Source: Candidatus Binatia bacterium (GTDB lineage Bacteria; Desulfobacterota; Binatia; UBA9968). From it: 64,000 nt of DNA. The notes below the pieces were generated by a model. It had not been told where the DNA came from. It was given only the letters and a program-made list of their open reading frames with translations, and did not search any database. The DNA lies in assembly GCA_036504975.1 (NCBI GenBank), contig DASXUF010000105.1, positions 67,728-131,727 on the forward strand. Reading direction: 5' to 3'. Each line of letters starts with the position of its first letter. Positions within the stretch are counted from its first letter, which is position 1. Of this stretch, positions 51,773 through 64,000 are shown piece by piece. The position numbers and the translations under genes were made by a program.

Positions 51773-51837
51773 TGTTGAAATCCCCTTTCTGAATCGCAGT
51801 TATTTCTGGAAAGTTCTTTCTCGTCCGACCGTCTTTT

Positions 51838-51882
51838 CCCTCACCCTTCCCTCTCCCGGAGGGAGGTTAGAGTGAGGGTAGG
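51838..51882. repeat. GC-rich hairpin element CCCTCACCCTTCCCTCTCCCGGAGGGAGGTTAGAGTGAGGGTAGG (same family as 7599-7681)
   Basis: Shares the CCCTCACCCTTC(A)CCCTCTCCC core. Confidence 0.55.
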
Positions 51883-51920
51883 ACGCGTGAGTAGAAGAGT
51901 TGAACCGTACTGACGCTTTT

Positions 51921-52817
51921 TTAATCTCGTTTCTGCAACAACCCCCGCTGGTAAAACAATTCCAGCGTCTCCAGCAGATCGCCTTCCCTGCCGCCGGTAT
52001 CCGAGGGCCGGCCGCAATCCAGCGCGGCGATCTGCTCGAGGATTTTTGCCGTCGCGGGGGCGATCACGGCTTCCAATCCGTGATATCGGAAAGTCTGGCG
52101 CAGCTCGCGCATCTCCTCGGCGCGCCGGCCCGCGTGAATCGGCAACGCGGCGATGCTCCCGCCGACCTTGCCGACCAGGCCGGGAAAACTCTCTTCGTAG
52201 CGGCGCATGATTTCCTGCAATAGATCAAACTTCCTGGCGCCGAGCAACAGCTCCGTGAGAAGTCCCTGCAGGCCTTTCGTCAGCCCGGCGTAGACGATCT
52301 TAAAGGCTGAGGCTTGGCCGATTTTTGCGCCGAGCACTTCTATTTTCAGGCCGCACTCCCCGAGTCCGCGCAGCTCTTCGGCCCCGGGGCCGGAGACGTA
52401 GACCGAGGCGCGCGCCAGCTTGGTCGCCGAGCCGATGATGCAGCCGTCGACAAAGGCCGTCTGCGCCGGCGCGAGCGCCTCTGCGACGGCGGCGGCCGTC
52501 ATCGGAGAGATCGCGTTGGCGTCGAGATAGAGACAATCCTTCCTTCCGACCTTTGCCAGCGCCTTGCCGACCTGCGCGGCGATCTTCCGCGCCGCGGAGG
52601 GAACGACGATGGAAACAATGAGATCGGCATCCGAGACCAGCCGCCGAAGCGGCACCGACTCGACGCCGGCGTTCTCCGCCCGTTTTTGCGTGATCTCGCT
52701 CCGGCCTCGAGACGAAGTCAGCACCTCGAGTCCATGTTCCTTCAAAAGCTTGGCCCAGTGATAGCCCATCTCGCCGATGCTCAGGATGCCGATTTTTTGA
52801 AACGCCGCCACCTTCAT
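51921..52817 (-). CDS. NAD(P)-binding oxidoreductase (HIBADH/6PGDH-like Rossmann + DUF1932-like C-terminus)
   Basis: GILSIGEMGYHWAKLL dinucleotide-binding start. Confidence 0.5.
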   Translation of the reverse strand: MKVAAFQKIGILSIGEMGYHWAKLLKEHGLEVLTSSRGRSEITQKRAENAGVESVPLRRLVSDADLIVSIVVPSAARKIAAQVGKALAKVGRKDCLYLDANAISPMTAAAVAEALAPAQTAFVDGCIIGSATKLARASVYVSGPGAEELRGLGECGLKIEVLGAKIGQASAFKIVYAGLTKGLQGLLTELLLGARKFDLLQEIMRRYEESFPGLVGKVGGSIAALPIHAGRRAEEMRELRQTFRYHGLEAVIAPATAKILEQIAALDCGRPSDTGGREGDLLETLELFYQRGLLQKRD

Positions 52818-53941
52818 TCTCCTTTTTTCGGGCCGTTGATAACGTCGATCATCTGCCTGAGGCGCCCGAAGTTGCGTCGGTTAAACGGCACCAGGAGACG
52901 ATTGAGCGCCAAAGTAGCCGGCGGCTCATCCGCTTCTTCGGGCAGTGGGCCGGCCGCGCGAATCTCGCCGCCGGTCAGGATGTCGCGGAAATCACGATTC
53001 AACTTCGCGAGAAGCGAGGGCGTGGGAGAATGAATCAAACGTATCACCGTATCTCGCTTCACGTAGCGGAGCGACTGGTAATTCGAGTAAAAATGCTGGA
53101 TCTCCTTCACCGCTGCCTCCACGTCTTCGACGATCTTGAAAAGAGACAGGTCCTCCTCGCAAATGTAGCCGGCGTCCAGCATGCGCCGGCCGACGAAGTC
53201 TTCCCATTCTCTCCAGTAACCCCGGCCCGGCAGATCGATCATGAGAATCGGCATAATCTGACTTTTCCCCGTCTGCGCCAAGGTCAGCACCTCCGCCGCC
53301 TCGTCGTGCGTGCCGAATCCTCCGGGAAAAAAAACGAAGGCATCCGCTTCTTTAACAAAGACGAGCTTGCGGGTAAAGAAAAAATGAAAGGCGATGAGCT
53401 TGGGATCGCCGCTGATAAACCGGTTGGTCTCCTGCTCGAACGGCAGGTGGATATTGACGCCGAAGCTCTGCTCCCTGCCCGCGCCTTCATTGCCGGCTTG
53501 CATGATGCCGCCGCCGCTCCCCGTAATCACCATGAAGCCTTCTTCGGCCAGCCGGCGCGCCAAGGCTGCCGCCATCTGATAATGCGGGTCTTCTTCCGTA
53601 ACGCGCGCCGAGCCGAAAATGCTCACCTTGCGCACCGAGCGGTGCGGCGCGAAAAGCTTGAAAGCCAGGCGCAGCTCCTTGAGGGTCCGGTTGAAAACCT
53701 TGAGATCGCCGCGGCTGGCGGGACTCTGATCGAGTCTCAGGATCGTTTGCAGCATCTCGGCTACGAGCTCCTCGTTCGGGGAGCCCTCGCTTTGTCGAAG
53801 CCACTCCAGGACCTTGGGCTCGAGCGCGGCTAAGTTCACCCGCTCCCGCCTTCTAGATCGCGGCTTAACTTTTTTTCCGGAATCGTTCTCGACCTTGCTG
53901 CTCATCGTGAAACCATACAGGATCGACGGACCTGAGATCAA
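52814..53941 (-). CDS. LOG-family protein with N- and C-terminal extensions (PpnN-like nucleotide 5'-monophosphate nucleosidase)
   Basis: LOG motifs VSIFGSAR..., PGGFGTHDE. Confidence 0.65.
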   Translation of the reverse strand: MISGPSILYGFTMSSKVENDSGKKVKPRSRRRERVNLAALEPKVLEWLRQSEGSPNEELVAEMLQTILRLDQSPASRGDLKVFNRTLKELRLAFKLFAPHRSVRKVSIFGSARVTEEDPHYQMAAALARRLAEEGFMVITGSGGGIMQAGNEGAGREQSFGVNIHLPFEQETNRFISGDPKLIAFHFFFTRKLVFVKEADAFVFFPGGFGTHDEAAEVLTLAQTGKSQIMPILMIDLPGRGYWREWEDFVGRRMLDAGYICEEDLSLFKIVEDVEAAVKEIQHFYSNYQSLRYVKRDTVIRLIHSPTPSLLAKLNRDFRDILTGGEIRAAGPLPEEADEPPATLALNRLLVPFNRRNFGRLRQMIDVINGPKKGE

Positions 53942-55054
53942 TCAGCCTTTCAGCGCCAGGACGACCGGCGACTGGGCGCCGATATCTAAAGCTTGAATAT
54001 CCGTAAAGCCGGCGCGCGACAACCATTGCCGATACTCGGAAAAGGTAAAGGTATCTCCCTCGTCGGTCCCGAGCAGAGCGTTCAAGGCCAGCAACAACGG
54101 CATCAGCTCGGTTTTTCTCTCTTCATCGGCAATGTAGTCCATGATCAGGAGCCTGCCGTTTTCCTTCAAAGCCCGGAAACATTTGTCGATAAGCCGCCGG
54201 CTCCATTCCGCTCCTTCGGAATGGCAAATGTGACCGAGCAGCGCCAGATCGTATGCTTCCGTTCCGAAGTCGGTTCTTCTGATGTCGCCGGGGATGAATG
54301 AATACCGGTTCTGGACGCCAAAGTCGCACGCGAACTTCTTCGCAACCTCCAAGACGGGCGGAAAATCTACGGCCGTAACTTCCACCTGTTCGGATTGAAG
54401 CGCGAACGGAAGCGACCACACGGCCGAGCCCGCAGCCACGTCCAGTAATTTGATTTTTTGCCCCTCCAAAGGAAACGTTTTCTCGCAAAGCGCGGCCAGC
54501 TTCCAGGCCGAGTCTTTATGAACGTGGAACAACGCCTCTACGATGTCGAGATTCAGCCGCTCCCGTTCTGGTTCCGGGAGAAGCGGCAGCGCCGGCGCAC
54601 CGGCCTCGACCGCGCCCGGCAATTTGAGCCACAGCTTCAACAGCTGATCCGAGCAAATGAACAGCGAGCCCAGATAATTCTTGCCGGAGGAGAGGAAGTA
54701 GACGCGGGAAAGATCCGTCAGGCCGTACCGGCCGTTTTGTTTTTCTACCAGGCCCATGCCAGCCATACAGTTGAGCAGCATCCTGACTCCTCTTGGCGAG
54801 CACCCGATGGCCGACGCCAAATCATCCGCGTTCCTAGCAGCGTCGCCAACCGCCTCGAAAACGCCCAGCTTCAACGCCGTGAATAGCACCGCCTGCGGCG
54901 CAAAATAAAAACCCAGCTCATCCAGAGTCCCTCTCGCCAACGTATCGGCAATCGCGATCATGGCTTTTCTCCTTTCAGGAGCGAGCACAGGGGGCGAGTT
55001 GCTGCGGCCGATCACGTTGAGATAAGTTGTCTCTGCCGCTGTATCACCGCCCAC
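53942..55054 (-). CDS. Class I SAM-dependent O-methyltransferase (dimerisation domain + OMT domain)
   Basis: LLDVAAGSAVWS (motif I), LLIMDYI region; ~370 aa plant/bacterial OMT architecture. Confidence 0.65.
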   Translation of the reverse strand: MGGDTAAETTYLNVIGRSNSPPVLAPERRKAMIAIADTLARGTLDELGFYFAPQAVLFTALKLGVFEAVGDAARNADDLASAIGCSPRGVRMLLNCMAGMGLVEKQNGRYGLTDLSRVYFLSSGKNYLGSLFICSDQLLKLWLKLPGAVEAGAPALPLLPEPERERLNLDIVEALFHVHKDSAWKLAALCEKTFPLEGQKIKLLDVAAGSAVWSLPFALQSEQVEVTAVDFPPVLEVAKKFACDFGVQNRYSFIPGDIRRTDFGTEAYDLALLGHICHSEGAEWSRRLIDKCFRALKENGRLLIMDYIADEERKTELMPLLLALNALLGTDEGDTFTFSEYRQWLSRAGFTDIQALDIGAQSPVVLALKG

Positions 55055-55079: not shown

Positions 55080-55709
55080 ATGAAATACTACGACATATCT
55101 CTCAACTTGTCAGCGGATACCGTCCGCTGGATCACCTCTATACCTTTCGAGCTGCATGAGCGCCGCCGCATTGCCCGGGGAGACTCCAGCAATTCGTCGG
55201 CGGTGACCATGAGCCTCCACTCCGGCACGCACATGGATGCGCCGTTTCATTTCGCCCCGGACGGAGCCACGATCGACAATTTGCCGTTGGATTTGTTCAT
55301 CGGTCCGGCCCTGGTGCATGAGGTTGAAACCGAGCGATACATCAAAGCCGAACACGTCAAAGCTATTGAGCTTGATGGAATTACCCGCGTCCTCTTCAAG
55401 ACATGCAATTCCGAACTTTTAAAGCGCGGCAGCTACGATCCCGATTTCGTCGCCTTTTCCGTTAAGGCGGCCGAAGCCTTGGTGGCAAAGGGAGCGAAGC
55501 TGGTGGGACTGGATTTCCTTTCAGTCGCGCACGCCGGAGACGAGCAAGTCATGGTGCACAGGGCATTTCTCGATCGCGGCGTGGCACTATTGGAAGGGAT
55601 CGACTTGTCCGCGGTTAGTCCCGGTCGCTACGAGCTGATTTGCTTTCCGATCAAAGTCCGCGGCGCCGACGGCGCGCCATGCCGGGCCGTACTACGGGAA
55701 GTCTCGTAA
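55080..55709 (+). CDS. Cyclase-family protein (kynurenine formamidase-like)
   Basis: HSGTHMDAPFHF metal-binding motif. Confidence 0.7.
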   Translation: MKYYDISLNLSADTVRWITSIPFELHERRRIARGDSSNSSAVTMSLHSGTHMDAPFHFAPDGATIDNLPLDLFIGPALVHEVETERYIKAEHVKAIELDGITRVLFKTCNSELLKRGSYDPDFVAFSVKAAEALVAKGAKLVGLDFLSVAHAGDEQVMVHRAFLDRGVALLEGIDLSAVSPGRYELICFPIKVRGADGAPCRAVLREVS

Positions 55710-55830: not shown

Positions 55831-57681
55831 ATGAACAAACCCGATACAGCTATGCCTTTCATTGCTCGAGTTCATGAGACAAGTCCTTTCCCCGCGCAAT
55901 TATCCATCCATGATGTACTTGAGGCCTGGGCCGAGCGAACCCCCGGTGTGATCGCTATCGCCGCTCCCGGCCGTGCTCCTCTCACTTATGGCCGTTTACG
56001 TGTTCACATCGACGATGTGGTTCAGACGCTTAAGACGATGGGTATACGCCGCGATGACCGGATTGCCATCGTGCTTCCCAACGGCCCTGAAATGGCCGTC
56101 GCCTTTCTCTCAGTCGCCGCATACGCAACTGCGGCGCCGCTAAATCCTGCCTTAAGAGAAAAGGAATTTGACTTTTATCTTTCCGATCTCGGGGCCAAGG
56201 CGTTGATGGTTCATTCGGAAATGGACACTCCGGCTCGATCCATAGCCGAGGCGCGCGGCATTCCCGTCTTTGAGCTCTCTCCGGTGCCGACCTCAGAGGC
56301 GGGAATCTTTACGCTCAGCGGCCAAGAGAACTCGACTCCAGAGGGCGCCGATTGGCCGGCGCCCGAACACGTAGCGTTGGTGCTGCACACTTCAGGGACG
56401 ACTTCCCGCCCCAAGATGGTCCCGTTGACGCAGAAAAACCTGTGCGCTTCGGCTTATCACATTGCGTCCACGCTGAATCTGAGATCCGAAGATCGTTGTC
56501 TTAACGTCATGCCGCTTTTTCATATTCATGGGATTGTGGGAGCCGTTTTTTCGTCTCTGATGGCCGGGTCGAGCGTGGTGTGCGCCCCAGGCTTCGACCT
56601 GGAGAAGTTTTTCGCATGGCTGGAAGAGTCTCGGCCAACCTGGTACACGGCCGTGCCCGCCATTCATCAAGCGATCCTATCGCGAGCCGAAGATCACCTG
56701 GCAACGGTTCGGCGGAGCAACTTACGGTTTATTCGCTCGTCGTCGGCTGCGCTTCCGGTAAAGTTGATGAAAGAATTGGAAGCGCGATTCGGAGTACCCG
56801 TCATCGAAGCCTACGGAATGACCGAAGCGGCTCATCAAATTGCGAGCAATCCGCTGCCGCCGGGCAAGTGCAAGCCCGGCTCCGTAGGCGTGGCGGCCGG
56901 TCCGGAAGTCGCAGTCATGCACGAAGCAGGAGGATTGCTCGCACCGGGAGAGCGCGGTGAAATCGTTTTGCGCGGCCCCAACGTCACTCACGGGTACGAC
57001 GATAGCGGCGGCGCCACCGCCGAGGCGTTCACCAACGGCTGGTTTCGAACCGGGGATCAGGGATACATGGACGAAGAGGGCTATCTTTTTATCACGGGCC
57101 GCCTCAAAGAAATGATCAACAAGGGGGGGAAAAAGATTTCCCCGAAAGAAGTCGACGATGTTTTGCTGAACCATCCCGGAATCGTCCGGGCGGCGGTGTT
57201 CGCCGTGCCGCATCCGACTCTGGGGGAAGATGTCGCCGCAGCGGTGGTCGTGCGAGATAAGACGCAGACCACGGAAGCCGCAATCCGGGAATATCTTTCC
57301 GGTCGTTTGGCCGAATTCAAAATCCCCAGCCGGGTTTTGATACTTGATGACATACCCGAAAGCGGGCCGGGTAAAATACGGCGAATCGGGTTGGCCGAGG
57401 CACTCATGCCGCAGCCTGCCGGCCAGTTCGTTGCGCCCAAGGACGATCTGGAGGCGGCGGTGGCGAAAATCTATGCGGTCGTGCTCGGCGCTGAAGCGGT
57501 CGGCGCCAGCGACAATTTTTTTGCGTTGGGCGGCGATTCCCTGAGGGCGACCCAGGTTCTGTCGCGCATTCGAGCGACTTTCGGCGTAAACTTGTCGATC
57601 GCGACGATTTTCCGGAAAGCGACGGTTGAGGATTTGGCGCACGAGATCCGTCGGGCGATGGATGCAACGGAGCAAAAATAA
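55831..57681 (+). CDS. Stand-alone adenylation-carrier didomain (acyl-activating enzyme + C-terminal PCP), A domain resembling oxalate-CoA ligase (AAE3/Pcs60-type)
   Basis: HTSGTTSRPKMVPLTQKNL, GYGMTEA, GWFRTGD, GRLKEMINKGGKKISPKEVD; carrier motif FFALGGDSLRATQ. Confidence 0.75.
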   Translation: MNKPDTAMPFIARVHETSPFPAQLSIHDVLEAWAERTPGVIAIAAPGRAPLTYGRLRVHIDDVVQTLKTMGIRRDDRIAIVLPNGPEMAVAFLSVAAYATAAPLNPALREKEFDFYLSDLGAKALMVHSEMDTPARSIAEARGIPVFELSPVPTSEAGIFTLSGQENSTPEGADWPAPEHVALVLHTSGTTSRPKMVPLTQKNLCASAYHIASTLNLRSEDRCLNVMPLFHIHGIVGAVFSSLMAGSSVVCAPGFDLEKFFAWLEESRPTWYTAVPAIHQAILSRAEDHLATVRRSNLRFIRSSSAALPVKLMKELEARFGVPVIEAYGMTEAAHQIASNPLPPGKCKPGSVGVAAGPEVAVMHEAGGLLAPGERGEIVLRGPNVTHGYDDSGGATAEAFTNGWFRTGDQGYMDEEGYLFITGRLKEMINKGGKKISPKEVDDVLLNHPGIVRAAVFAVPHPTLGEDVAAAVVVRDKTQTTEAAIREYLSGRLAEFKIPSRVLILDDIPESGPGKIRRIGLAEALMPQPAGQFVAPKDDLEAAVAKIYAVVLGAEAVGASDNFFALGGDSLRATQVLSRIRATFGVNLSIATIFRKATVEDLAHEIRRAMDATEQK

Positions 57682-57696
57682 CCGGAGCGTCGGACC

Positions 57697-59351
57697 GTGA
57701 TGAAGACAAAACCGAGCACTGACGCGCGTGACGGGCACGCACTGGTCGCTGAAACATTAAAAGCGCTGGGCGTCACTCATGTCTATTGTGTCTCAGGCAC
57801 CCCAATCCGCGAAACCTTCGCCAAGTGCGCGCAACTGGGCGTCCGTCCAATCGGCGTGCATCATCAGCAAGCGGGCGTCATGATGGCCACCGCCCAGAAT
57901 TACGCGACCGGCCGATTGACGGCCGTGGCGATAGTTTCGGCCGGCCCTGCCGTGACCAACGCAGCGACCGGCATTCTGGTTGCTAAGGACAATTGTTGGC
58001 CGGTGGTGGTGCTGGGCGGGCGGCGGCCGTTGAGCATGCAGGGTATGGGTTCCTTCCAGGAGTTGGACGGCGCGGCGTTATACCAATCCATAACGAAGTG
58101 GTCCGCGCTCGTGGAAACCACATCGAGCATCCCGGCCTATCTCGACCGCGCGTTCAAGTTGGCGATGTCCGGGCGGCCCGGACCCGTCTATCTCGATCTG
58201 CCGGAAGACATGTTGACGGGATTTGCCCGCGTCACCGATCCTTTTTTTCCCGACCCGCCTCAACCTCCACCGCCGAATACCGATTCGACCCAGCGAGCGG
58301 CCGACATCCTGCTGCAAGCGAACCGCCCGGCAATCATTATCGGTAAAGGTGTTCGCTGGTCCCGGCCCGGCGAGGAGGTGCGGCGGTTAGTCGACGAGTT
58401 TGGCATTCCATTTATCACTTCACCGATGGGCCGAGGCTACCTGCCCGACGACCACCCGCTTTGCTGTAACGACGCGCATCGTCTTATAGTCTCAAAGGCA
58501 GATGCCATCCTCCTGATCGGAGCAAGGCTCGACTGGACGTTTCGCTTCGGCAGCGAATTCGCTCGTGACGCCAAACTCATTCAGATCGATATTCACAAGT
58601 CGGAAATCGGCGTCAACCGTGCCCCGACAGTGGGGATCGAGGGCGATGCCCAAGCAGTTCTTCGGCAGCTATTGGCCGCTATGACGGCGAAGAGTCATGC
58701 GGGCGCCAACGGCGCCTTGGCTTCATGGCATGGAATGCTGGGCGAAGAGCGGACGAGGAAAAGGGGCAAGCTGGATTCACTGATGACAGCGATTCCGTCC
58801 CGATGTCGCCCTACCGGATGTTGAAAGAGATTCGCGACTTTCTTCCGCGCGATGCGATTTCGATACTCGACGGCAATGTGTTTATGGCGGCGGGGCAACA
58901 GGTGCTGCCGTCTTATTTGCCGGCTTCCCGTTTTACTGCGGGGAATAACGGGTGCCTGGGAGTGGGTATACCCTTCGGCGTCGGCGCGAAGCTCGCCTGT
59001 CCAAATCGTCTCGTTGTCTCAATTTGCGGCGACACGGCGTTCGCATTTAATGCCATGGAAATGGAAACTGCGGTGAGACACAGGATTCCATTGGTCGTCG
59101 TTGTGGTCAACAATGACGGTAATACCGGAGCACTTATGGAACAGTCCTATTCCCCCTGCAGTGAGGAGCGCGTAACGATGTACCAACCCGGCATCCATTA
59201 CGAAGCCGTCATGAGCGCTTTCGGCGGCCATGCCGAATTCGTGGCTCGTCCCGCCGAGCTCCGACCGGCGCTGGAGCGCGCGGTAGCATCCGGCAGAGCG
59301 GCTTGCATCAACGTGCAGGTCGATCCTCACGAGCGCTACCCGCAGGAATAG
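57697..59351 (+). pseudogene. Oxalyl-CoA decarboxylase / 2-hydroxyacyl-CoA lyase-like TPP enzyme, reading frame broken near 58760-58800 (possibly a sequencing error)
   Basis: ORF 57697..58824 carries Pyr + middle domains (SGRPGPVYLDLP). ORF 58725..59351 carries the PP domain (GDTAFAFNAMEMETA...NNDGN) in another frame. Confidence 0.6.
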
Positions 59352-59419
59352 GTTATCTTGGCTTGTGGAAACGGGAAAGGCTTGAATCGCGATCAAAAGA
59401 GCGTATTGGTCGATTGGAC

Positions 59420-62400
59420 ATGGAAAATCAGTTCATACCTCGCATAGTCAACCGCGACTCGGTTCCCTTGTCGTTTGCCCAGCAGCGGCTCTGGTTTTTG
59501 GACCAACTGGAACCTGACAACCCGCTTTATAACGTCCCAACGGCCCTGCGGTTAAGCGGCAAACTGAGTGTAGAACTCCTGCGAAGATCGCTTGACGCTA
59601 TCGTAGCGCGACATGAAGCGCTGCGGACAACCTTTGTTCCGCTGGACGGAATCCCCGTACAGGTGATCGGCGCATACCGGCCCGTGGAACTTACGGTGAT
59701 CGACCTTGCCCAGGGGTCGCCTTCCGAACGCGAGGCGAAGCTGCGGCTTGCGCTCAAGGAAGAATCGCGCCGGCCTTTTAAGTTGTCCGCGGATTTGATG
59801 TTGCGCGCGACCTTGGCCCGGTTGGACGACGATGATCACGTATTGCTCCTGGTGATGCACCATATTGCGTCCGACGGCTGGTCTCGCGAGATTCTCTTTC
59901 ATGAGCTCGCCGTCCTGTACAGGGCCTTCGCGGAAGGCAAACCGGAACCCCTGCCCGAGCGGCCCATCCAGTATGCGGACTTTGCAGTCTGGCAGCGCGA
60001 GCGGCTGCAGGGCAAAATTCTAGAGGACCAACTCTCTTACTGGAAGCAACGGCTCGCGGGCCTGACAGTCCTCGATCTTCCCATCGACCATCCGCGCCCG
60101 GCGGTTCAGAGCTTCCGCGGCGCGCGTCAATCGTTTGCGCTGCCCAAAGCCCTCTGTGACGAGCTTAAAGCGTTCAGTCGCCGCCAAGGATTGACGCTGT
60201 TCATGACGCTGCTGTCGGCCTTTCAAGTCCTGCTGCATCGCTACACGGGACAGGATGATATTGTCATCGGCTCGCCGATCGCGGGTCGCACCCGCGCTGA
60301 GATCGAAGAGCTGATCGGGCTGTTTATCAATACGCTGGTTTTGAGAGGCGACTTGTCGGGCGATCCCAAATTCACGGAGCTGCTGGCTCGCGTGCGCCAA
60401 GCGGCCCTAGAGGCTTACGAACACCAAGAGCTGCCGTTTGAGAAATTAGTAGAGGAGTTGCGTCCCGAGAGAGATCCGAGCCGCTCTCCGCTGTTTCAAG
60501 TGATGTTCGTCTTGCAGAATATGCCAAGGACAGCCCTGGAGCTGGCAGGCGTTACAGTGACTCCTCTAGAGGTAGACAGCGGGACCGCTAAATTTGATTT
60601 GACGCTGTCGATGGCGGAGCAAGCCGGCCTACTCAGAGCGACGTTGGAGTACAGCGCCGATCTATTTGAAGAGGCTACCATCGAGCGGATGGCCGGGCAC
60701 TTTCAAACCTTGCTCGAAGGGATCGTGAGGAATCCGGATCAGCGCCTCTCCGAGTTGCGGATACTGACCGAAGCGGAGCGGCATCGAATACTCATAGAGT
60801 GGAACGATACGAAGAGAGATTATCCGACGGACAAGTGCATTCACGAACTCTTCGAGGAGCAGGTGGAGCGGACTCCCGACGCGGTGGCGGTGGTCTTTCC
60901 TTCGACGGGCTCAGGACAGAGCGAGGACCGACAACTCACTTACGGGGAATTGAATCGCCGGGCCAATCAGTTGGCGCACTATCTTAAGAAGCGCGGCGTG
61001 GGTCCGGAAGCGCTGGTCGGTCTTTGCGTCGAGCGCTCTTTGGAGATGGTGGTGGGACTGCTGGGAATTCTCAAGGCCGGCGGGGCGTATCTGCCGCTGG
61101 ATACGAGCTCTCCCAACAAGCGTCTCGCGTTCATTTTGCAGGATGCTCACATAGCGGTGTTGTTGACTCAGCGGCGACTGGCCGAAGGGCTTTCCGACGA
61201 GGTGAGGCATACGATCTGCCTCGATACGGATTGGCAGGCCGTCGCCCGGGAGAGCGATGCGAACCCGGTCAGTTCCACAAAAGGAGAAAATCTCGCCTAC
61301 GTGATCTATACCTCAGGCTCCACGGGAACACCCAAGGGAGTCCTGGTTGAGCATCGACAGATTCTCAACTATGTCAAAGGCATCTCGGATCGCTTGCACC
61401 TGGAGCCCGGCGCCGGCTTCGCTATGGTTCAACCGCTTTCCGTGGACTCGAGCCAGACGGTTATTTTCCCCGCATTAATTTCAGGTGGCTGTCTCCATGT
61501 GATATCCGAAGACAGAGCTGCTGACCCGCGGGCACTCGGCGACTATTTTCGCCGCTTTCCCATCGATCTGCTTAAGATCGCTCCGTCCCATCTGGCTGCC
61601 CTGCACATCTCGTCCCCTCCCGAGCGACTCTTGCCGCGTCGTTGGCTGGTGCTCGGCGGGGAAGCTTCTCGGCGGGATTGGGTAGAGAATTTGCGACCGC
61701 TGACCCGCTGCTCCACGTTCAACCACTACGGCCCGACGGAAGCGACAGTAGGCGCGCTCACGTTCGCGATAGGAAGGGAGCAAAGTGACCACGCTTCTTC
61801 AACGGTTCCGATAGGACGCCCTCTCCCTAATATTCACGTCTATATATTGGACCCCCACGGGCAACCATTGCCGGTCGGGATTCCCGGCGAGTTGCACATC
61901 GGCGGTAGTGGTGTGACCCGAGGTTATCTCAACAGGCCTGAGCTGACGACGGAGAAATTTATCCCCAACCCTTTCAGCGACGAGCCGGGCGCGCGCCTCT
62001 ATAAGAGCGGAGACGTGGCGCGTTATCTCCCTGACGGGAACATCGAGTTCCTCGGTCGCGCCGACCACCAGGTTAAGATCCGTGGCTTCCGCGTCGAGCT
62101 GGGGGAGATCGAGGCGGTGCTCGGCCAGCATCCGGACGTGCGGGATGTGACGGTTTTGGCTCGGGAAGATATCCCCGGCCGGCAGCGCCTGGTAGCCTAT
62201 ATCGTCGCCAACAAGGAGCGCGCGCCCACAACCGGCGGCAGGCAGCGCTATAGGCTGCCGAATCATATGGCTGTGGCGCAGTTAAATAAGTACGAGACCG
62301 ACTATATCTACGAAGAAATATTCGAGCGCCAGGCGTACCTCAAGCATGGGATTGCGATTCGTGAAGGGGATTGCGTCTTCGATGTGGGGGCAAATATCGG

Positions 62401-64000
62401 CCTGTTTACCATCTTCGTGCGGCAAATGTGTAAAACCGCCAGGGTATACGCCTTTGAGCCGAATCCTTTTGCCTTTGAGATATTGAGCCTGAACGCTTCG
62501 CTCTATGCTCCCGGCGCGAAATTGTTCGATTGCGGCTTATCTAACGAAACCAAGACAGCTTCTTTTACTTTTTTCCCCGGCTTTTCCCTGTTCTCCGGCT
62601 TCTATGCCGACGCGCAGATTGAAAAGGAAGTCGTAAAGACATTCATGCTGAATCAGCAGAAAGCCGGCAAGGCTCATATGGCCGAGCTCTTAGAGCAGGC
62701 CGACGGCATACTCGACGAGCGGTTTTCGCCTACCACCCTGCCCGTTCGGTCGAGAACTCTTTCGGCCGTGATGGAGGAGGAGGGCGTTGAATGCATAGAT
62801 CTCTTGAAGATCAACGCGGAAAAGAGCGAACTCGATGTTCTCAACGGGATCAACGACGTTGACTGGAAAAAGATCAAACAGATCGTCCTGGAGGTCGATG
62901 TTCAGGAAAATCTGCGCGCTATTCTCTCGTTGCTGGAGCGGCAGGGCTATGACTTCATCGTGAAGCAGGATGCGCTGCTTGAGAATACTCAACTCCGCTA
63001 CGTTTATGCGATCCGCCCGTCAGAGGGTAGGCGGCTGGAAAGGAATGCGGAGCGGGCGGAGATTGAGCCGATCCCGATGCTGAGCGATTCTTCGCTTTCT
63101 CCCGACGAGGTGAGGCGCTTTTTAAGAGAGAGGCTGCCCGAACATATGGTGCCCTCCGCGTTGGTCTTTCTCCAGGCTCTCCCGCTGACTCCTCACGGCA
63201 AGGTGGACCGCCGCGCGCTGCCGGCGCCTGAGCAGACGAGACCCGAGCTGGAAAGCTCATACATCACGCCTCGCACGGAGGTCGAGAATGTTCTAGCCGC
63301 GGTTTGGATGAAAGTTCTCAAGCTCGGTCAGGTCGGCATCCATGACAACTTCTTTGATTTAGGGGGGCACTCCCTACTGGCCACCCAAGTCATCTCGCGC
63401 CTGCGTGAGGCTTTCCACGTGGAGACGCCGATGCGCGCGCTTTTTGAATCGCCTACGGTGGCCGGCCTGGCTAAGTACATTGAATCGGTTCGCCAGGAGG
63501 CAACCGGCGCAAGAGCCTTACGTATATTGCCCGAACGAGTTATTCGAGACTATCCGCTATCTTTTTCTCAGGAGCGGTTTTGGTTTCTCAGTCAACTGGA
63601 GCCCAACAACTTAGCTTACAAGGTCACGTTTGGCTTTCACCTCACCGGGCCGTTGAATACCAAGGCTCTAGAGCAATCACTCACGGAGATTGTGCGAAGG
63701 CACGAAACCCTGCGCACGACGTTTCACCTGAGAAACGGCGAACCAGTCCAAGTGATTTCTGAACGATGGTCCTTTCCGTTAACGATTATAGATTTGAGGC
63801 AGCAAACTCCGGTCGATTCAGAAGCAGAAGTCCAACGACTCTTTGAAAACGAGCGTCGACGTTTTTTTGATCTGTCCGTCGACTTGTTGTTGCGAGCTAC
63901 TTTACTGCAACTGGGTGCAGATGAGCATGTTCTGGTTTTAAGCAGTCATCACGTCGCCTGGGATCACTGGTGTATCGAATTATTTTTGTGTGAACTCTCC
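59420..64000 (+). CDS. Non-ribosomal peptide synthetase, 3'-partial: starter C domain - A domain with embedded FkbM-family methyltransferase - PCP - C domain (continues beyond window)
   Basis: Open frame from ATG 59420 to window end. C motifs (HHIASDGW; SHHVAWDHW), A2-A10 (LKAGGAYLPLD, YTSGSTGTPKG, NHYGPTE, GELHIGGSGVTRGYL, KIRGFRVELGEIE, LPLTPHGKVDR), T (DLGGHSLLA). FkbM signature DVGANIGLF...AFEPNP between A8 and A10. Confidence 0.85.
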   Translation, partial: MENQFIPRIVNRDSVPLSFAQQRLWFLDQLEPDNPLYNVPTALRLSGKLSVELLRRSLDAIVARHEALRTTFVPLDGIPVQVIGAYRPVELTVIDLAQGSPSEREAKLRLALKEESRRPFKLSADLMLRATLARLDDDDHVLLLVMHHIASDGWSREILFHELAVLYRAFAEGKPEPLPERPIQYADFAVWQRERLQGKILEDQLSYWKQRLAGLTVLDLPIDHPRPAVQSFRGARQSFALPKALCDELKAFSRRQGLTLFMTLLSAFQVLLHRYTGQDDIVIGSPIAGRTRAEIEELIGLFINTLVLRGDLSGDPKFTELLARVRQAALEAYEHQELPFEKLVEELRPERDPSRSPLFQVMFVLQNMPRTALELAGVTVTPLEVDSGTAKFDLTLSMAEQAGLLRATLEYSADLFEEATIERMAGHFQTLLEGIVRNPDQRLSELRILTEAERHRILIEWNDTKRDYPTDKCIHELFEEQVERTPDAVAVVFPSTGSGQSEDRQLTYGELNRRANQLAHYLKKRGVGPEALVGLCVERSLEMVVGLLGILKAGGAYLPLDTSSPNKRLAFILQDAHIAVLLTQRRLAEGLSDEVRHTICLDTDWQAVARESDANPVSSTKGENLAYVIYTSGSTGTPKGVLVEHRQILNYVKGISDRLHLEPGAGFAMVQPLSVDSSQTVIFPALISGGCLHVISEDRAADPRALGDYFRRFPIDLLKIAPSHLAALHISSPPERLLPRRWLVLGGEASRRDWVENLRPLTRCSTFNHYGPTEATVGALTFAIGREQSDHASSTVPIGRPLPNIHVYILDPHGQPLPVGIPGELHIGGSGVTRGYLNRPELTTEKFIPNPFSDEPGARLYKSGDVARYLPDGNIEFLGRADHQVKIRGFRVELGEIEAVLGQHPDVRDVTVLAREDIPGRQRLVAYIVANKERAPTTGGRQRYRLPNHMAVAQLNKYETDYIYEEIFERQAYLKHGIAIREGDCVFDVGANIGLFTIFVRQMCKTARVYAFEPNPFAFEILSLNASLYAPGAKLFDCGLSNETKTASFTFFPGFSLFSGFYADAQIEKEVVKTFMLNQQKAGKAHMAELLEQADGILDERFSPTTLPVRSRTLSAVMEEEGVECIDLLKINAEKSELDVLNGINDVDWKKIKQIVLEVDVQENLRAILSLLERQGYDFIVKQDALLENTQLRYVYAIRPSEGRRLERNAERAEIEPIPMLSDSSLSPDEVRRFLRERLPEHMVPSALVFLQALPLTPHGKVDRRALPAPEQTRPELESSYITPRTEVENVLAAVWMKVLKLGQVGIHDNFFDLGGHSLLATQVISRLREAFHVETPMRALFESPTVAGLAKYIESVRQEATGARALRILPERVIRDYPLSFSQERFWFLSQLEPNNLAYKVTFGFHLTGPLNTKALEQSLTEIVRRHETLRTTFHLRNGEPVQVISERWSFPLTIIDLRQQTPVDSEAEVQRLFENERRRFFDLSVDLLLRATLLQLGADEHVLVLSSHHVAWDHWCIELFLCELS

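What the first reader, a model, noticed from the sequence alone, without database searches (positions are those of the whole stretch)
55831..64000. NRPS locus with an unusual priming set: AAE3-like A-PCP didomain + oxalyl-CoA-decarboxylase/HACL-like TPP enzyme ahead of a starter-C NRPS
Seen: ORF 55831..57681 is an adenylating enzyme whose motif region (HTSGTTSRPKMVPLTQKNL) resembles oxalate-CoA ligases (plant AAE3 / yeast Pcs60) rather than fatty-acyl or amino-acid A domains, and it ends in a carrier-protein motif (GGDSLRAT). The next gene is a TPP enzyme that, unlike the ALS-like paralog at 49994..51772, resembles oxalyl-CoA decarboxylase / 2-hydroxyacyl-CoA lyase (SGRPGPVYLDLP; PP domain GDTAFAFNAMEMETA). 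The NRPS then opens with a condensation (starter) domain. Established: Oxc/HACL enzymes make or break a C1 (formyl) unit on acyl thioesters, and starter C domains N-acylate the first amino acid. Inference: this trio could build an unusual short, possibly 2-hydroxy- or oxalyl/formyl-derived, N-acyl cap on a carrier protein. A cyclase-family gene and an O-methyltransferase lie immediately upstream.
Basis: partly seen in the sequence, partly recalled or inferred. Interest (0 to 1): 0.78.

Follow-up and report, generated by a model that had tools for sequence, protein, structure and literature searches.

The report
Oxalate-type loader plus thiamine enzyme priming NRPS
A peptide-making gene cluster starts with a conserved three-part set (an oxalate-type activating enzyme fused to a carrier protein, an unusual thiamine-dependent enzyme that lacks the family's catalytic glutamate, and a condensation domain) that probably makes a one-carbon or short hydroxy-acid cap on the peptide by undescribed chemistry, although in this genome the thiamine enzyme gene carries a one-base frameshift.

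Summary
ORF 55831-57681 is an adenylation-carrier didomain. Its nearest solved relatives are plant and yeast oxalate-CoA ligases, and it keeps their oxalate-specific Ser and His. The next gene belongs to the 2-hydroxyacyl-CoA lyase / oxalyl-CoA decarboxylase (HACL/OXC) family, not the acetolactate synthases. An NRPS starting with a condensation domain follows.

- The thiamine (ThDP) enzyme gene is split by a 1-nt deletion at 58785/58786. Relatives are intact.
- The whole clade has Gln in place of the cofactor-activating Glu, has lost a CoA-binding Arg, and has lost the C-terminal lid.
- The first C domain is an ordinary elongation type, not a lipo-starter type.

The trio is strongly co-conserved. 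47 of 49 Gln-type loci have the A-PCP upstream, and 30 of 34 have a C domain downstream. Glu-type relatives score 0 of 5 and 0 of 3. Some bacteria fuse A-PCP-ThDP into one protein. Algae fuse AAE3 to OXC without a carrier.

Most likely mechanism (inferred): oxalate is loaded on the PCP, decarboxylated there to a formyl unit or a carboligated 2-hydroxyacyl unit, and transferred to a variable first amino acid. I found no description of this in the searchable literature. Named members are Candidatus Binatia MAGs. The chemistry is untested.

The parts
55831..57681 (+). AAE3-like adenylation domain fused to a peptidyl carrier protein. The A domain spans about nt 55918-57375 and the PCP about nt 57460-57645, with the carrier Ser in GGDSL at 57538-57540. 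It has no C-terminal docking tail.
   Evidence: Pfam finds AMP-binding, AMP-binding_C and PP-binding. The best PDB hits are oxalate-CoA ligases at 405/389/338 bits. The oxalate pocket reads HIHSSGMHK against AtAAE3 HVHCSAMHK, with Ser289 and His319 kept. Pocket residues are taken from PMC8905533.
57697..58785 (+). ThDP enzyme, 5' part up to the frameshift (PYR and middle/ADP domains). Gln replaces the cofactor-activating Glu (HHQQ at nt 57859-57870; the Gln codon is 57865-57867). It has the HACL-type GSFQE motif.
   Evidence: Pfam finds TPP_enzyme_N and TPP_enzyme_M. The best NCBIfam hit is oxalyl-CoA decarboxylase, below its cutoff.
58785..58786 (+). Site of the 1-nt deletion (CTGATG-ACAGCG here, CTGATGAACAGCG in relatives) that splits the ThDP gene into two frames.
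   Evidence: DNA alignment with L001, L002 and L007. Protein alignment. Inserting one A restores a 551-aa ORF. dN/dS is 0.26-0.27 downstream of the site and 0.24-0.27 upstream.
58786..59351 (+). ThDP enzyme, 3' part (PP domain) in the +1 frame. The ThDP-Mg motif GDTAF...NNDG lies at nt 59028-59120. The C-terminus is short and conserved (VDPHERYPQE, then stop), in place of the CoA-covering lid.
   Evidence: Pfam finds TPP_enzyme_C. Tail length is a median of 8 aa against 18 aa in Glu-type relatives.
59420..64000 (+). NRPS, truncated by the window end. It comprises C (nt 59453-60790, HHIASDG at 59858), an A domain (60851-62218, Asp-like code DSTKVGHVG) interrupted by an FkbM-type methyltransferase (62381-62956), a PCP (63290-63481) and a second C domain (from about 63551).
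   Evidence: Translation and Pfam. The first C matches elongation C domains best (Txo2 408 bits, TycC6 313), while starter C domains score 62-76 bits.
55080..55709 (+). Cyclase / arylformamidase-like gene. It is a neighbour shared only with the closest relatives.
   Evidence: Pfam Cyclase. NCBIfam arylformamidase at 160 bits, below the cutoff of 223. Found only in L001, L002 and L007.
49994..55054 (-). Divergent block of four genes: O-methyltransferase (53942-55054), LOG/SLOG-family protein (52814-53941), NAD-binding dehydrogenase (51921-52817) and a second ThDP enzyme (49994-51772). These are lineage-specific accessory genes of this cluster.
   Evidence: Pfam and NCBIfam. The same block is present in L002. 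It is absent from the other cassette loci. The second ThDP enzyme keeps the canonical Glu.

Best explanation
This is a conserved NRPS priming cassette. It is a carrier-protein version of the oxalate catabolic pair, oxalyl-CoA synthetase plus oxalyl-CoA decarboxylase.

Step 1 (inferred from pocket conservation): the AAE3-like A domain adenylates oxalate, or a similarly small polar acid, and thioesterifies it to its own PCP.

Step 2 (inferred from family membership, gene fusions and loss of CoA-binding elements): the HACL/OXC-family ThDP enzyme acts on the PCP-tethered oxalyl thioester. It adds ThDP to the thioester carbonyl and decarboxylates, giving the hydroxymethyl-thioester carbanion/enamine.

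[quoted passage not shown] I favour formyl at about 0.4 of the total, against about 0.25 for 2-hydroxyacyl.

Step 4 (inferred from gene order and the minimal colinear cluster): the elongation-type C domain that opens the NRPS transfers this short acyl group to the amino group of the first amino acid. That residue is Asp-like here, probably methylated by the embedded FkbM-type methyltransferase.

In this particular genome the ThDP gene has a 1-nt frameshift. The step may therefore be lost, carried out by a split two-chain enzyme, or the frameshift may be a sequencing error.
For: Shown by the sequence and searches:
- A domain. Its nearest solved relatives are oxalate-CoA ligases. 41 of 43 cassette A-PCPs keep Ser289 and His319, which PMC8905533 describes as specific to oxalyl-CoA synthetases.
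- ThDP protein. Its nearest relatives are HACL/S and OXC, well above ALS.
- Co-occurrence in non-redundant loci. 47 of 49 Gln-type ThDP genes have the A-PCP directly upstream, and 30 of 34 have a C domain within 2 kb downstream, usually 29-344 nt. Glu-type relatives score 0 of 5 and 0 of 3.
- Fusion evidence. P0279, P0280, P0300 and P0388 are single A-PCP-ThDP proteins. Algal P0370 (Chlorokybus) and P0385 (Closterium) fuse an AAE3 with the identical oxalate pocket to a Glu-type OXC/HACL enzyme and have no PCP. The oxalate ligase and this ThDP family are therefore an established functional couple, and the carrier and Gln features go together.
- Loss of CoA contacts. The clade has Gln where HACL/S has the acyl-CoA-binding Arg400. 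It also lacks the C-terminal covering peptide whose residues contact acyl-CoA (PMC11271303). The ADP-site arginines and the ThDP-Mg motif are kept.
- Minimal cluster. L073 reads [A-PCP-ThDP][C-A-PCP-C][A-PCP-TE] and has no other starter.
- Generic cap. The first-module specificity codes differ between loci: Asp, Gly, Ser, Ile/Val, Ala and Asn types.

Precedents:
- An engineered OXS + OXC + thioesterase cascade turns oxalate plus aldehydes into 2-hydroxy acids (PMC7154664).
- Formyl-ACP is used by an assembly line in lactacystin biosynthesis (PMC11730586).
Against: - No biochemical data exist for any member.
- The ThDP clade has Gln at the position of the cofactor-activating Glu in every A-PCP-linked member. 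My own knowledge is that Glu-to-Gln mutants of other ThDP enzymes are strongly impaired.
- It carries HACL-type Phe-Gln-Glu, not OXC Tyr120-Glu121. It also lacks OXC Tyr483 and Ser553, which protonate the carbanion in OXC. Human HACL decarboxylates oxalyl-CoA at under 1 per minute. The algal AAE3-fused enzymes also carry FQE, which softens this objection.
- In about half of the loci with upstream sequence, the gene before the cassette is another NRPS subunit ending in a PCP plus a docking tail. The cassette is therefore not always obviously first in the assembly order.
- The first C domain is not a distinct clade.
- In this window the ThDP gene is frameshifted.
Confidence: 0.55

Rival explanations
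1. Decarboxylative carboligation. The ThDP enzyme decarboxylates oxalyl-S-PCP but does not release formyl. The carbanion attacks a free aldehyde or ketone, giving a 2-hydroxyacyl-S-PCP (glycolyl, lactyl or larger), which becomes the N-cap. This is a natural counterpart of the engineered OXS/OXC cascade.
For: - The closest solved relatives are HACL/S synthases.
- The substrate-carbonyl Gln (RuHACL Q113) is conserved as GSFQE.
- The OXC residues that protonate the carbanion (Tyr483, Ser553) are absent. Removing the Tyr in MeOXC shifted the enzyme about 400-fold toward carboligation (PMC7154664).
- The only other natural ThDP family without the canonical Glu is glyoxylate carboligase, a decarboxylating carboligase (PMC3534367).
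Against: - No aldehyde-forming enzyme is co-conserved with the cassette.
- The minimal L073 cluster has nothing obvious to supply an acceptor.
- The divergent subclade replaces the Gln with Met, in GYFMA.
Confidence: 0.25
2. The Gln-type ThDP protein is catalytically weak or inactive. It acts as a carrier-binding adaptor or gatekeeper, and the cap that reaches the peptide is oxalyl itself.
For: - The cofactor-activating Glu is missing in all members.
- Clusters without the ThDP gene exist in which the same type of A-PCP feeds a C domain directly. An example is the Gemmatimonadota genome CP070758 (L068). There the A-PCP carries a docking tail that the cassette A-PCPs lack.
Against: - The ThDP-Mg motif (GDx...NN[DE]G), the ADP-site arginines and the active-site FQE are conserved across the clade.
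- Several residues around the aminopyrimidine pocket co-vary with the Gln (N67, S80, A84). That looks like remodelling rather than decay.
- dN/dS is about 0.25.
- Glyoxylate carboligase is active without the Glu.
Confidence: 0.1
3. The A domain loads a different small acid (a 2-hydroxy acid, glyoxylate or malonate), and the ThDP enzyme works in the lyase direction or on another substrate.
For: - NCBIfam scores stay below every curated cutoff. The best are the FadD7 family at 436 against a cutoff of 650, and malonyl-CoA synthase at 296.
- Position 313 of the pocket is Gly instead of Ala, and position 288 varies among Ser, Cys and Ala.
- HACL enzymes naturally cleave 2-hydroxyacyl thioesters.
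Against: - The two oxalate-specific contacts are kept in 41 of 43 members.
- Algal fusions of a genuine AAE3 pocket with this ThDP family point to oxalate as the shared substrate.
- Loading a 2-hydroxy acid only to cleave it to formyl would be wasteful.
Confidence: 0.1
4. C-C coupling of two carrier-bound units. The oxalyl-derived carbanion attacks the thioester of an aminoacyl- or peptidyl-S-PCP delivered by the upstream subunit. This would give a 2-oxoacyl thioester and, after condensation, an alpha-ketoamide in the chain.
For: - In 13 of about 25 loci with upstream sequence, the gene just before the cassette is an NRPS subunit ending in a PCP plus a docking tail.
- A family of stand-alone ~670-aa A-PCP-dock proteins without C domains recurs in these clusters.
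- The downstream C domain is of the type that normally takes aminoacyl or peptidyl donors.
Against: - I know of no precedent for a thioester acceptor in ThDP carboligation.
- Clusters in which the cassette is clearly first, or fused, work without such a partner.
- The docking tails are a general feature of all subunits in these clusters.
Confidence: 0.05

Closest known systems
Oxalate catabolic pair: oxalyl-CoA synthetase (plant AAE3, yeast Pcs60) plus oxalyl-CoA decarboxylase (OXC)
   Same: - The A domain is 40-47% identical to AtAAE3 and keeps the oxalate pocket.
- The partner enzyme belongs to the same ThDP family.
- Green algae fuse the two activities.
- The proposed chemistry is the same two steps: activation to a thioester, then ThDP-dependent decarboxylation.
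   Different: - The thioester carrier is a fused PCP, not CoA.
- The ThDP enzyme has Gln for the catalytic Glu, lacks OXC Tyr120/Glu121, Tyr483 and Ser553, lacks the C-terminal lid and has lost Arg400.
- The output feeds an NRPS condensation domain rather than formate/CO2 metabolism.
[quoted passage not shown]
   Same: These are the closest solved structures (345-354 bits). The Phe-Gln-Glu active-site motif, the Gly-x-Pro loop, the ADP-site arginines and the ThDP motif are shared.
   Different: Sequence identity is only 36-40%. The catalytic Glu50 is replaced by Gln, the acyl-CoA-binding Arg400 is replaced by Gln or Glu, and the covering peptide (R545/K546/Q548/W552) is absent. The genomic context is an NRPS.
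Glyoxylate carboligase
   Same: According to PMC3534367, it is the only ThDP decarboxylase-superfamily family that naturally lacks the canonical Glu (it has Val at standard position 51). It decarboxylates a two-carbon acid and uses the resulting C1 carbanion for carboligation.
   Different: It has Val rather than Gln, acts on a free acid rather than a thioester, and is a distant relative (178 bits).
Formylation-domain NRPS initiation (linear gramicidin LgrA) and the formyl-ACP of lactacystin (LctF / LctA-AT1)
   Same: The possible outcome is the same: a formyl unit enters an assembly line at the start (for lactacystin; LgrA from my own knowledge).
   Different: In those systems the formyl group comes from N10-formyl-tetrahydrofolate through a formyltransferase. 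Here it would come from oxalate by adenylation and ThDP-dependent decarboxylation.
Engineered oxalate-to-2-hydroxy-acid cascade (OXS + OXC Y497A + thioesterase; Burgener et al. 2020)
   Same: The logic is the same as in the carboligation rival: oxalate is activated to a thioester and decarboxylated, and the carbanion is trapped by an aldehyde. The engineered shift toward carboligation was obtained by removing residues that this natural clade lacks.
   Different: The cascade is CoA-based, man-made, and uses the canonical Glu.

Membership tests
Oxalyl-CoA synthetase (AAE3/Pcs60) family | ANL-superfamily adenylating enzyme most similar to characterised oxalate-CoA ligases | tested here: met
   Scores are 405/389/338 bits to 5ie0/6qjz/8aff. 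The next family, FadD13, scores 232.
Oxalyl-CoA synthetase (AAE3/Pcs60) family | Oxalate-contacting Ser289 and His319 (AtAAE3 numbering), plus the catalytic Lys500 | tested here: met
   The window pocket reads HIHSSGMHK. Ser289 is present in all 43 cassette and related A-PCPs, and His319 in 41 of 43. The residue list comes from PMC8905533.
Oxalyl-CoA synthetase (AAE3/Pcs60) family | Free-standing enzyme that transfers the acyl group to coenzyme A | tested here: not met
   A C-terminal PP-binding domain with GGDSL is fused to it. The thiol acceptor is presumably its own phosphopantetheine arm.
Oxalyl-CoA synthetase (AAE3/Pcs60) family | Oxalate is the preferred substrate | not testable with these tools
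   This needs an adenylation or loading assay.
Oxalyl-CoA decarboxylase (OXC) | Score above the curated family cutoff | tested here: not met
   Against NF006721 the two fragments score 225 + 113 bits, with a cutoff of 557. Against TIGR03254 they score 204 + 108, with a cutoff of 739.
Oxalyl-CoA decarboxylase (OXC) | Tyr120-Glu121, Tyr483 and Ser553 (O. formigenes numbering), which bind the oxalyl group and protonate the carbanion | tested here: not met
   The clade has Phe-Gln at positions 120-121 and Thr/Cys/Ser at 483. The chain ends at about position 554.
Oxalyl-CoA decarboxylase (OXC) | Cofactor-activating Glu56 | tested here: not met
   It is Gln in the window (HHQQ) and in all A-PCP-linked members.
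[quoted passage not shown] | Substrate-carbonyl Gln (RuHACL Q113) in a Phe-Gln-Glu motif | tested here: met
   GSFQE is conserved in the main clade. A divergent subclade has GYFMA.
[quoted passage not shown] | Canonical catalytic Glu (E50/E54) hydrogen-bonded to N1' of ThDP | tested here: not met
   Gln is invariant at this position. The role of the Glu is described in PMC11271303.
[quoted passage not shown] | Acyl-CoA-binding Arg260 and Arg400, and a C-terminal covering peptide that contacts acyl-CoA | tested here: not met
   The Arg260 equivalent is mostly kept (it is His in the window). The Arg400 equivalent is Gln or Glu. The covering peptide is missing.
[quoted passage not shown] | ThDP-Mg binding motif and ADP-site arginines | tested here: met
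   GDTAF...NNDG is present, and the R160/R282 equivalents are conserved.
Acetolactate synthase | Closest similarity to ALS/AHAS large subunits | tested here: not met
   The best ALS structure scores 193 bits, against 354 for HACL. TIGR00118 scores 192 + 76 against a cutoff of 538.
Lipo-initiation starter condensation (Cs) domain | Closer to characterised starter C domains than to elongation C domains | tested here: not met
   Txo2/Txo1 score 408/402 bits and TycC6 313 bits. RzmA Cs scores 76 and CDA-C1 62. The first C domains do not form a separate clade from internal C domains (55% against 51% mean identity). A formal NaPDoS-type classification was not run.
NRPS initiation module (loading A-PCP that donates to the first C domain) | An A-PCP without a C domain, encoded next to a subunit that begins with a C domain with an intact HHxxxDG motif | tested here: met
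   (HHIASDG). The colinear minimal cluster L073 supports it.

The most novel reading that the evidence does not exclude
A previously undescribed way to start a nonribosomal peptide. An HACL/OXC-family ThDP enzyme has switched from CoA thioesters to a carrier-protein-tethered oxalyl thioester. It works without the canonical cofactor-activating glutamate, which would make it the second natural exception after glyoxylate carboligase. It turns oxalate into a formyl or 2-hydroxyacyl cap. If the carbanion is trapped by carbonyl acceptors, this would be nature's own version of the synthetic one-carbon-extension cascades now being engineered.
Probability: 0.5. Interest if true: 0.82.

Novelty: new variant of a known kind. 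Interest (0 to 1): 0.72.

Why it matters
If the mechanism holds, three fields gain something.

- NRPS biochemistry gains a new priming route. Oxalate would serve as the source of a C1 or short hydroxyacyl cap, processed while attached to a carrier protein. It would also give a compact, portable three-part cassette for engineering peptide N-termini.
- ThDP enzymology gains a large natural clade with Gln at the 'invariant' Glu position. In the best 150 of 1.84 billion representatives, 44 clusters at 50% identity are of this type. Residues around the cofactor co-vary with the Gln. This gives a direct test of how cofactor activation and carbanion fate are tuned.
- One-carbon biocatalysis (HACL/OXC engineering) gains natural enzymes that already lack the protonation machinery engineers remove.

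The cassette also marks many uncharacterised gene clusters in uncultured soil bacteria (Candidatus Binatia) whose products are unknown.

Tried and rejected
1. Literature. Nine full-text searches found no description of this cassette. They combined oxalyl-CoA decarboxylase, HACL, ThDP, oxalyl, NRPS, carrier protein and starter unit. A 2024 review of decarboxylation in natural-product biosynthesis lists no carrier-tethered oxalyl decarboxylation. The library lacks most subscription-journal papers, so absence is not proof.

2. The genome-contig scan with a single protein was too strict and returned only 2 loci. Because of this I could not establish whether any cultured organism carries the cassette.

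3. Search for further co-conserved accessory genes. All-against-all clustering of ORFs from 58 loci gave only NRPS, A-domain and ThDP families and their shadow frames. The window's cyclase, O-methyltransferase, LOG-like protein, dehydrogenase and second ThDP enzyme occur only in its closest relatives. I therefore rejected the idea that the arylformamidase-like gene is a conserved partner, for example a deformylase.

4. The idea that the first C domains form a dedicated subtype was rejected.

5. The idea that the second ThDP enzyme makes the aldehyde acceptor was considered and dropped. The gene is not conserved with the cassette, and decarboxylating a 2-oxo acid only to re-add one carbon would be pointless.

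6. Exceptions I examined. L050 is a ThDP fragment next to UbiD, luciferase-like and glyoxalase genes, with no A-PCP. L048 has an A-PCP and a Gln-type ThDP gene, followed by a 520-aa protein with no Pfam match instead of a C domain. L065 holds only a ThDP fragment.

7. Structure prediction was not run. The tool returns confidence and secondary structure only, which cannot place the cofactor or the carrier arm.

Full report
**What is in the window**

The 3' end of the window holds a tightly packed plus-strand operon.
- A 616-aa protein at 55831-57681.
- A ThDP-enzyme gene that starts 16 nt later at 57697.
- An NRPS gene that starts at ATG 59420, 69 nt after the ThDP stop, and runs off the window.

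Pfam assigns these domains:
- The 616-aa protein has AMP-binding, AMP-binding_C and PP-binding.
- The ThDP gene has TPP_enzyme_N and TPP_enzyme_M in one ORF, and TPP_enzyme_C in a second, overlapping ORF in another frame.
- The NRPS reads Condensation (aa 12-457), AMP-binding interrupted by an FkbM-type methyltransferase (aa 988-1179), PP-binding (aa 1291-1354), and a second Condensation domain.

Upstream lie a cyclase/arylformamidase-like gene and, on the other strand, an O-methyltransferase, a LOG-family protein, a dehydrogenase and a second ThDP enzyme. The rest of the window is ordinary chromosome, with rpoD, dnaG, dxs, ispA, xseA and ftsEX.

**The ThDP gene is interrupted**

Alignment with three relatives shows that the window, and a 100%-identical Logan contig from run SRR11743100 (L001), read CTGATG-ACAGCG. 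L002 and L007 read CTGATGAACAGCG. One base is missing between 58785 and 58786.

Putting it back gives a 551-aa ORF that is 92% identical to the intact 550-aa L002 protein. dN/dS against L002 and L007 is the same downstream of the break (0.26-0.27) as upstream (0.24-0.27). There is no sign of decay. The frameshift is therefore very recent, an error shared by both assemblies, or tolerated as a split PYR+R / PP enzyme.

**Family assignments**

The A domain's best solved relatives are oxalate-CoA ligases: AtAAE3 at 405 bits, Lathyrus OCS at 389 and Pcs60 at 338. These are far above FadD13 (232) and malonyl-CoA synthetase (210).

The AtAAE3 oxalate pocket is Val215-His216, Cys288-Ser289, Ala313-Met314, His319 and Lys500. 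[quoted passage not shown] The window protein reads H-I-H-S-S-G-M-H-K at positions 214, 215, 216, 288, 289, 313, 314, 319 and 500. Across 43 related A-PCPs, Ser289 is always present and His319 is present in 41.

The ThDP protein is closest to HACL/S (354 and 345 bits) and then OXC (255). ALS scores 193. NCBIfam ranks oxalyl-CoA decarboxylase first for the N-terminal part, but every model is below its cutoff.

**Co-conservation**

The closest relatives show the same A-PCP / ThDP / C-domain order with intact ThDP genes. They are L002 (87% identical A-PCP), L003 and L004 (65%).

A metagenome scan with a clade alignment gave 61 further loci. After removing duplicates:
- 54 loci carry the Gln-type ThDP gene.
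- 47 of the 49 with at least 300 nt upstream have an AAE3-like A-PCP directly upstream on the same strand.
- 30 of the 34 with at least 500 nt downstream have a C domain within 2 kb, typically starting 29-344 nt after the stop.
- The five related loci whose ThDP protein keeps the canonical Glu have neither.

The window's other neighbours (cyclase, O-methyltransferase, LOG-like protein, dehydrogenase, second ThDP enzyme) occur only in L001, L002 and L007. They are not part of the conserved unit.

**An atypical ThDP enzyme**

I aligned the clade with O. formigenes and E. coli OXC, RuHACL and TbHACS. Every A-PCP-linked member has Gln where all four references have the cofactor-activating Glu. The motif is R-[HN]-Q-Q against R-[HN]-E-Q, and the window reads HHQQ at nt 57859.

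That Glu is treated as a hallmark of the ThDP decarboxylase superfamily, with glyoxylate carboligase (Val) as the known exception (PMC3534367). In HACL/S its hydrogen bond to N1' is called critical for cofactor activation (PMC11271303).

Other features of the clade:
- It has the HACL-type Phe-Gln-Glu instead of OXC Tyr120-Glu121.
- It has no Tyr483, and it ends about where OXC Ser553 lies.
- It therefore lacks the C-terminal covering peptide, whose residues (R545, K546, Q548 and W552 in ApbHACL/S) contact acyl-CoA.
- It has Gln or Glu at the acyl-CoA-binding Arg400 position.
- The ThDP-Mg motif and the ADP-site arginines are retained.

A profile search of 1.84 billion representatives shows that this is a clade property. 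Among the best 150 hits, 44 are Gln-type and 92 are Glu-type. The Gln co-varies with Asn67, Ser80, Ala84 and Gln400, and with a short tail (median 8 against 18 residues after the conserved Asp-Pro). Several of these positions flank the aminopyrimidine pocket. This looks like a remodelled active site, not a dead one.

**Fusion proteins**

Four Gln-type representatives (P0279, P0280, P0300, P0388) are single polypeptides with the order A - PCP - ThDP enzyme. L006, a Gammaproteobacteria MAG, carries one too.

Two Glu-type representatives come from the streptophyte algae Chlorokybus and Closterium. Each is an AAE3 with the exact plant oxalate pocket fused directly to the ThDP enzyme, with no carrier domain.

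This gives two conclusions. First, the oxalate ligase and this ThDP family form a recurrent functional pair. Second, 'carrier domain present' goes together with 'Gln, no lid, no Arg400', and 'CoA-dependent' goes together with 'Glu, lid, Arg'. This is the strongest evidence here that the bacterial enzyme acts on the PCP-tethered acyl group.

**Role in the assembly line**

- The cluster around one fusion (L073) reads [A-PCP-ThDP][C-A-PCP-C][A-PCP-TE] and has no other loading module. This fits a cap plus two amino acids.
- The first-module specificity codes differ between loci. They are Asp-like DSTKVGHVG in the window and L007, with Gly, Ser, Ile/Val, Ala and Asn types elsewhere. The cassette therefore supplies a generic N-terminal unit.
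- The first C domain is an ordinary elongation type. It scores 408/402 bits to teixobactin Txo2/Txo1 and 313 to TycC6, against 62-76 bits to starter C domains. It is not separable from internal C domains.
- One complication remains. In about half of the loci with upstream sequence, the preceding gene is an NRPS subunit ending in a PCP plus a docking tail of the form ..ELExLS[ED]EEA... Most cassette A-PCPs lack this tail. The ThDP-less A-PCP of Gemmatimonadota CP070758, which feeds a C domain directly, has it.

**Mechanism**

The best-supported reading is: oxalate is loaded on the PCP, ThDP-dependent decarboxylation takes place on the carrier, and the product is transferred by the C domain.

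Whether the carbanion is protonated (formyl cap) or trapped by a carbonyl compound (2-hydroxyacyl cap) cannot be decided from sequence.
- For carboligation: the loss of the OXC protonation residues and of the Glu, by analogy with the MeOXC Y497A result and with glyoxylate carboligase.
- For formyl: no conserved aldehyde source exists, and the minimal cluster is very simple.
- Human HACL barely decarboxylates oxalyl-CoA. However, the algal AAE3-fused enzymes also carry Phe-Gln-Glu, so that motif does not exclude oxalyl chemistry.

Less likely readings are an inactive adaptor with an oxalyl cap, a different acid substrate, or carrier-to-carrier C-C coupling.

**Novelty and limits**

Nine literature searches and a 2024 review found no description of the cassette or of a carrier-tethered oxalyl decarboxylation. 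The library omits most subscription papers.

All named members of the main clade are Candidatus Binatia MAGs. One is a Casimicrobiaceae MAG and one a Gammaproteobacteria MAG. The high identity within the clade therefore partly reflects a narrow taxonomic range.

No experiment supports any step. In this window the central gene is frameshifted.

Noticed in passing
window 58785-58786: A 1-nt deletion splits the ThDP gene into two frames. The same break is in the Logan contig L001 (SRR11743100). Relatives L002 and L007 are intact, and dN/dS is unchanged downstream of the break.
   Followed up: yes
window 62381-62956 (inside the A domain at 60851-63250): The first NRPS adenylation domain has an Asp-like code (DSTKVGHVG). 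It is interrupted by an FkbM-family methyltransferase inserted before the A10 motif (PHGKVDRRAL at nt 63191). This suggests a methylated Asp as residue 1.
   Followed up: partly
window 63551-64000: The second condensation domain has an unusual N-terminal motif (YPLSFSQERFWF...AYKV) and reads HHVAWDH in place of HHxxxDG. A similar internal domain occurs in L018. It may be a specialised C subtype.
   Followed up: no
L002 10824-18320 compared with window 59420-64000: The closest relative has a 90% identical first C domain. Its first A domain, however, has a Gly-type code (DILQIGGVY) and no methyltransferase. L007 matches the window. This points to a recent A-domain swap between near-identical clusters.
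   Followed up: partly
L068 8001-17302 (Gemmatimonadota genome CP070758); L070 (Anaerolineae); L071 (Stigonema): The AAE3-like A-PCP family is very large. All 8000 scored candidates matched, and the 120 listed are 55-100% identical (mostly about 60%). It also occurs without the ThDP gene: as A-PCP-dock feeding C-A-T / C-A-T-TE, as stand-alone A-PCP-TE next to a PPTase, and as stand-alone A-PCP-C. These may make N-oxalyl products, and none appears to be characterised.
   Followed up: partly
P0370 (Chlorokybus atmophyticus) and P0385 (Closterium sp.): Streptophyte algae encode single proteins that fuse an AAE3-type oxalate-CoA ligase to an OXC/HACL-type ThDP enzyme, with no carrier domain. This is a fused oxalate catabolic pathway.
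   Followed up: partly
L009 4530-6530, L044, L015, L021, L024, L028, L037, L065, L007 8156-10108: These clusters contain a recurrent family of stand-alone ~670-aa A-PCP proteins. They have a conserved N-terminal motif (HPSGxFVEF), an atypical A4 region and a C-terminal docking tail. There are often two per cluster, and none has a C domain. Their role is unclear.
   Followed up: no
C-termini of many NRPS subunits in L004-L068 (for example L009 6410-6530): A conserved C-terminal tail (..[LM]xE[LVI]ExLS[ED]EEAxxLL..) follows the last PCP of most subunits. It is presumably a docking element. Most ThDP-linked A-PCPs lack it, including the one in this window.
   Followed up: partly
L047, L048, L049, L054, L063: A divergent Gln-type ThDP subclade (45-48% identity) replaces the active-site GSFQE with GYFMA. 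It thereby loses the substrate-carbonyl Gln as well. In L048 a 520-aa protein with no Pfam match follows, instead of a C domain.
   Followed up: partly
window 49994-53941 (minus strand): A second ThDP enzyme keeps the canonical Glu and is only distantly like benzoylformate decarboxylase. It sits with a DUF1932 dehydrogenase and a LOG/SLOG-family protein. The block is syntenic in L002 and its function is unknown.
   Followed up: partly
window 42060-44336: A 758-aa radical SAM protein lies between the ftsEX-type genes and the cluster. It was not examined further.
   Followed up: no
L050 1-6128: A ThDP-enzyme fragment 59-64% identical to the clade lies next to UbiD-family, luciferase-like monooxygenase and glyoxalase genes, with no A-PCP. 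It is the one clear exception to the adjacency rule.
   Followed up: partly
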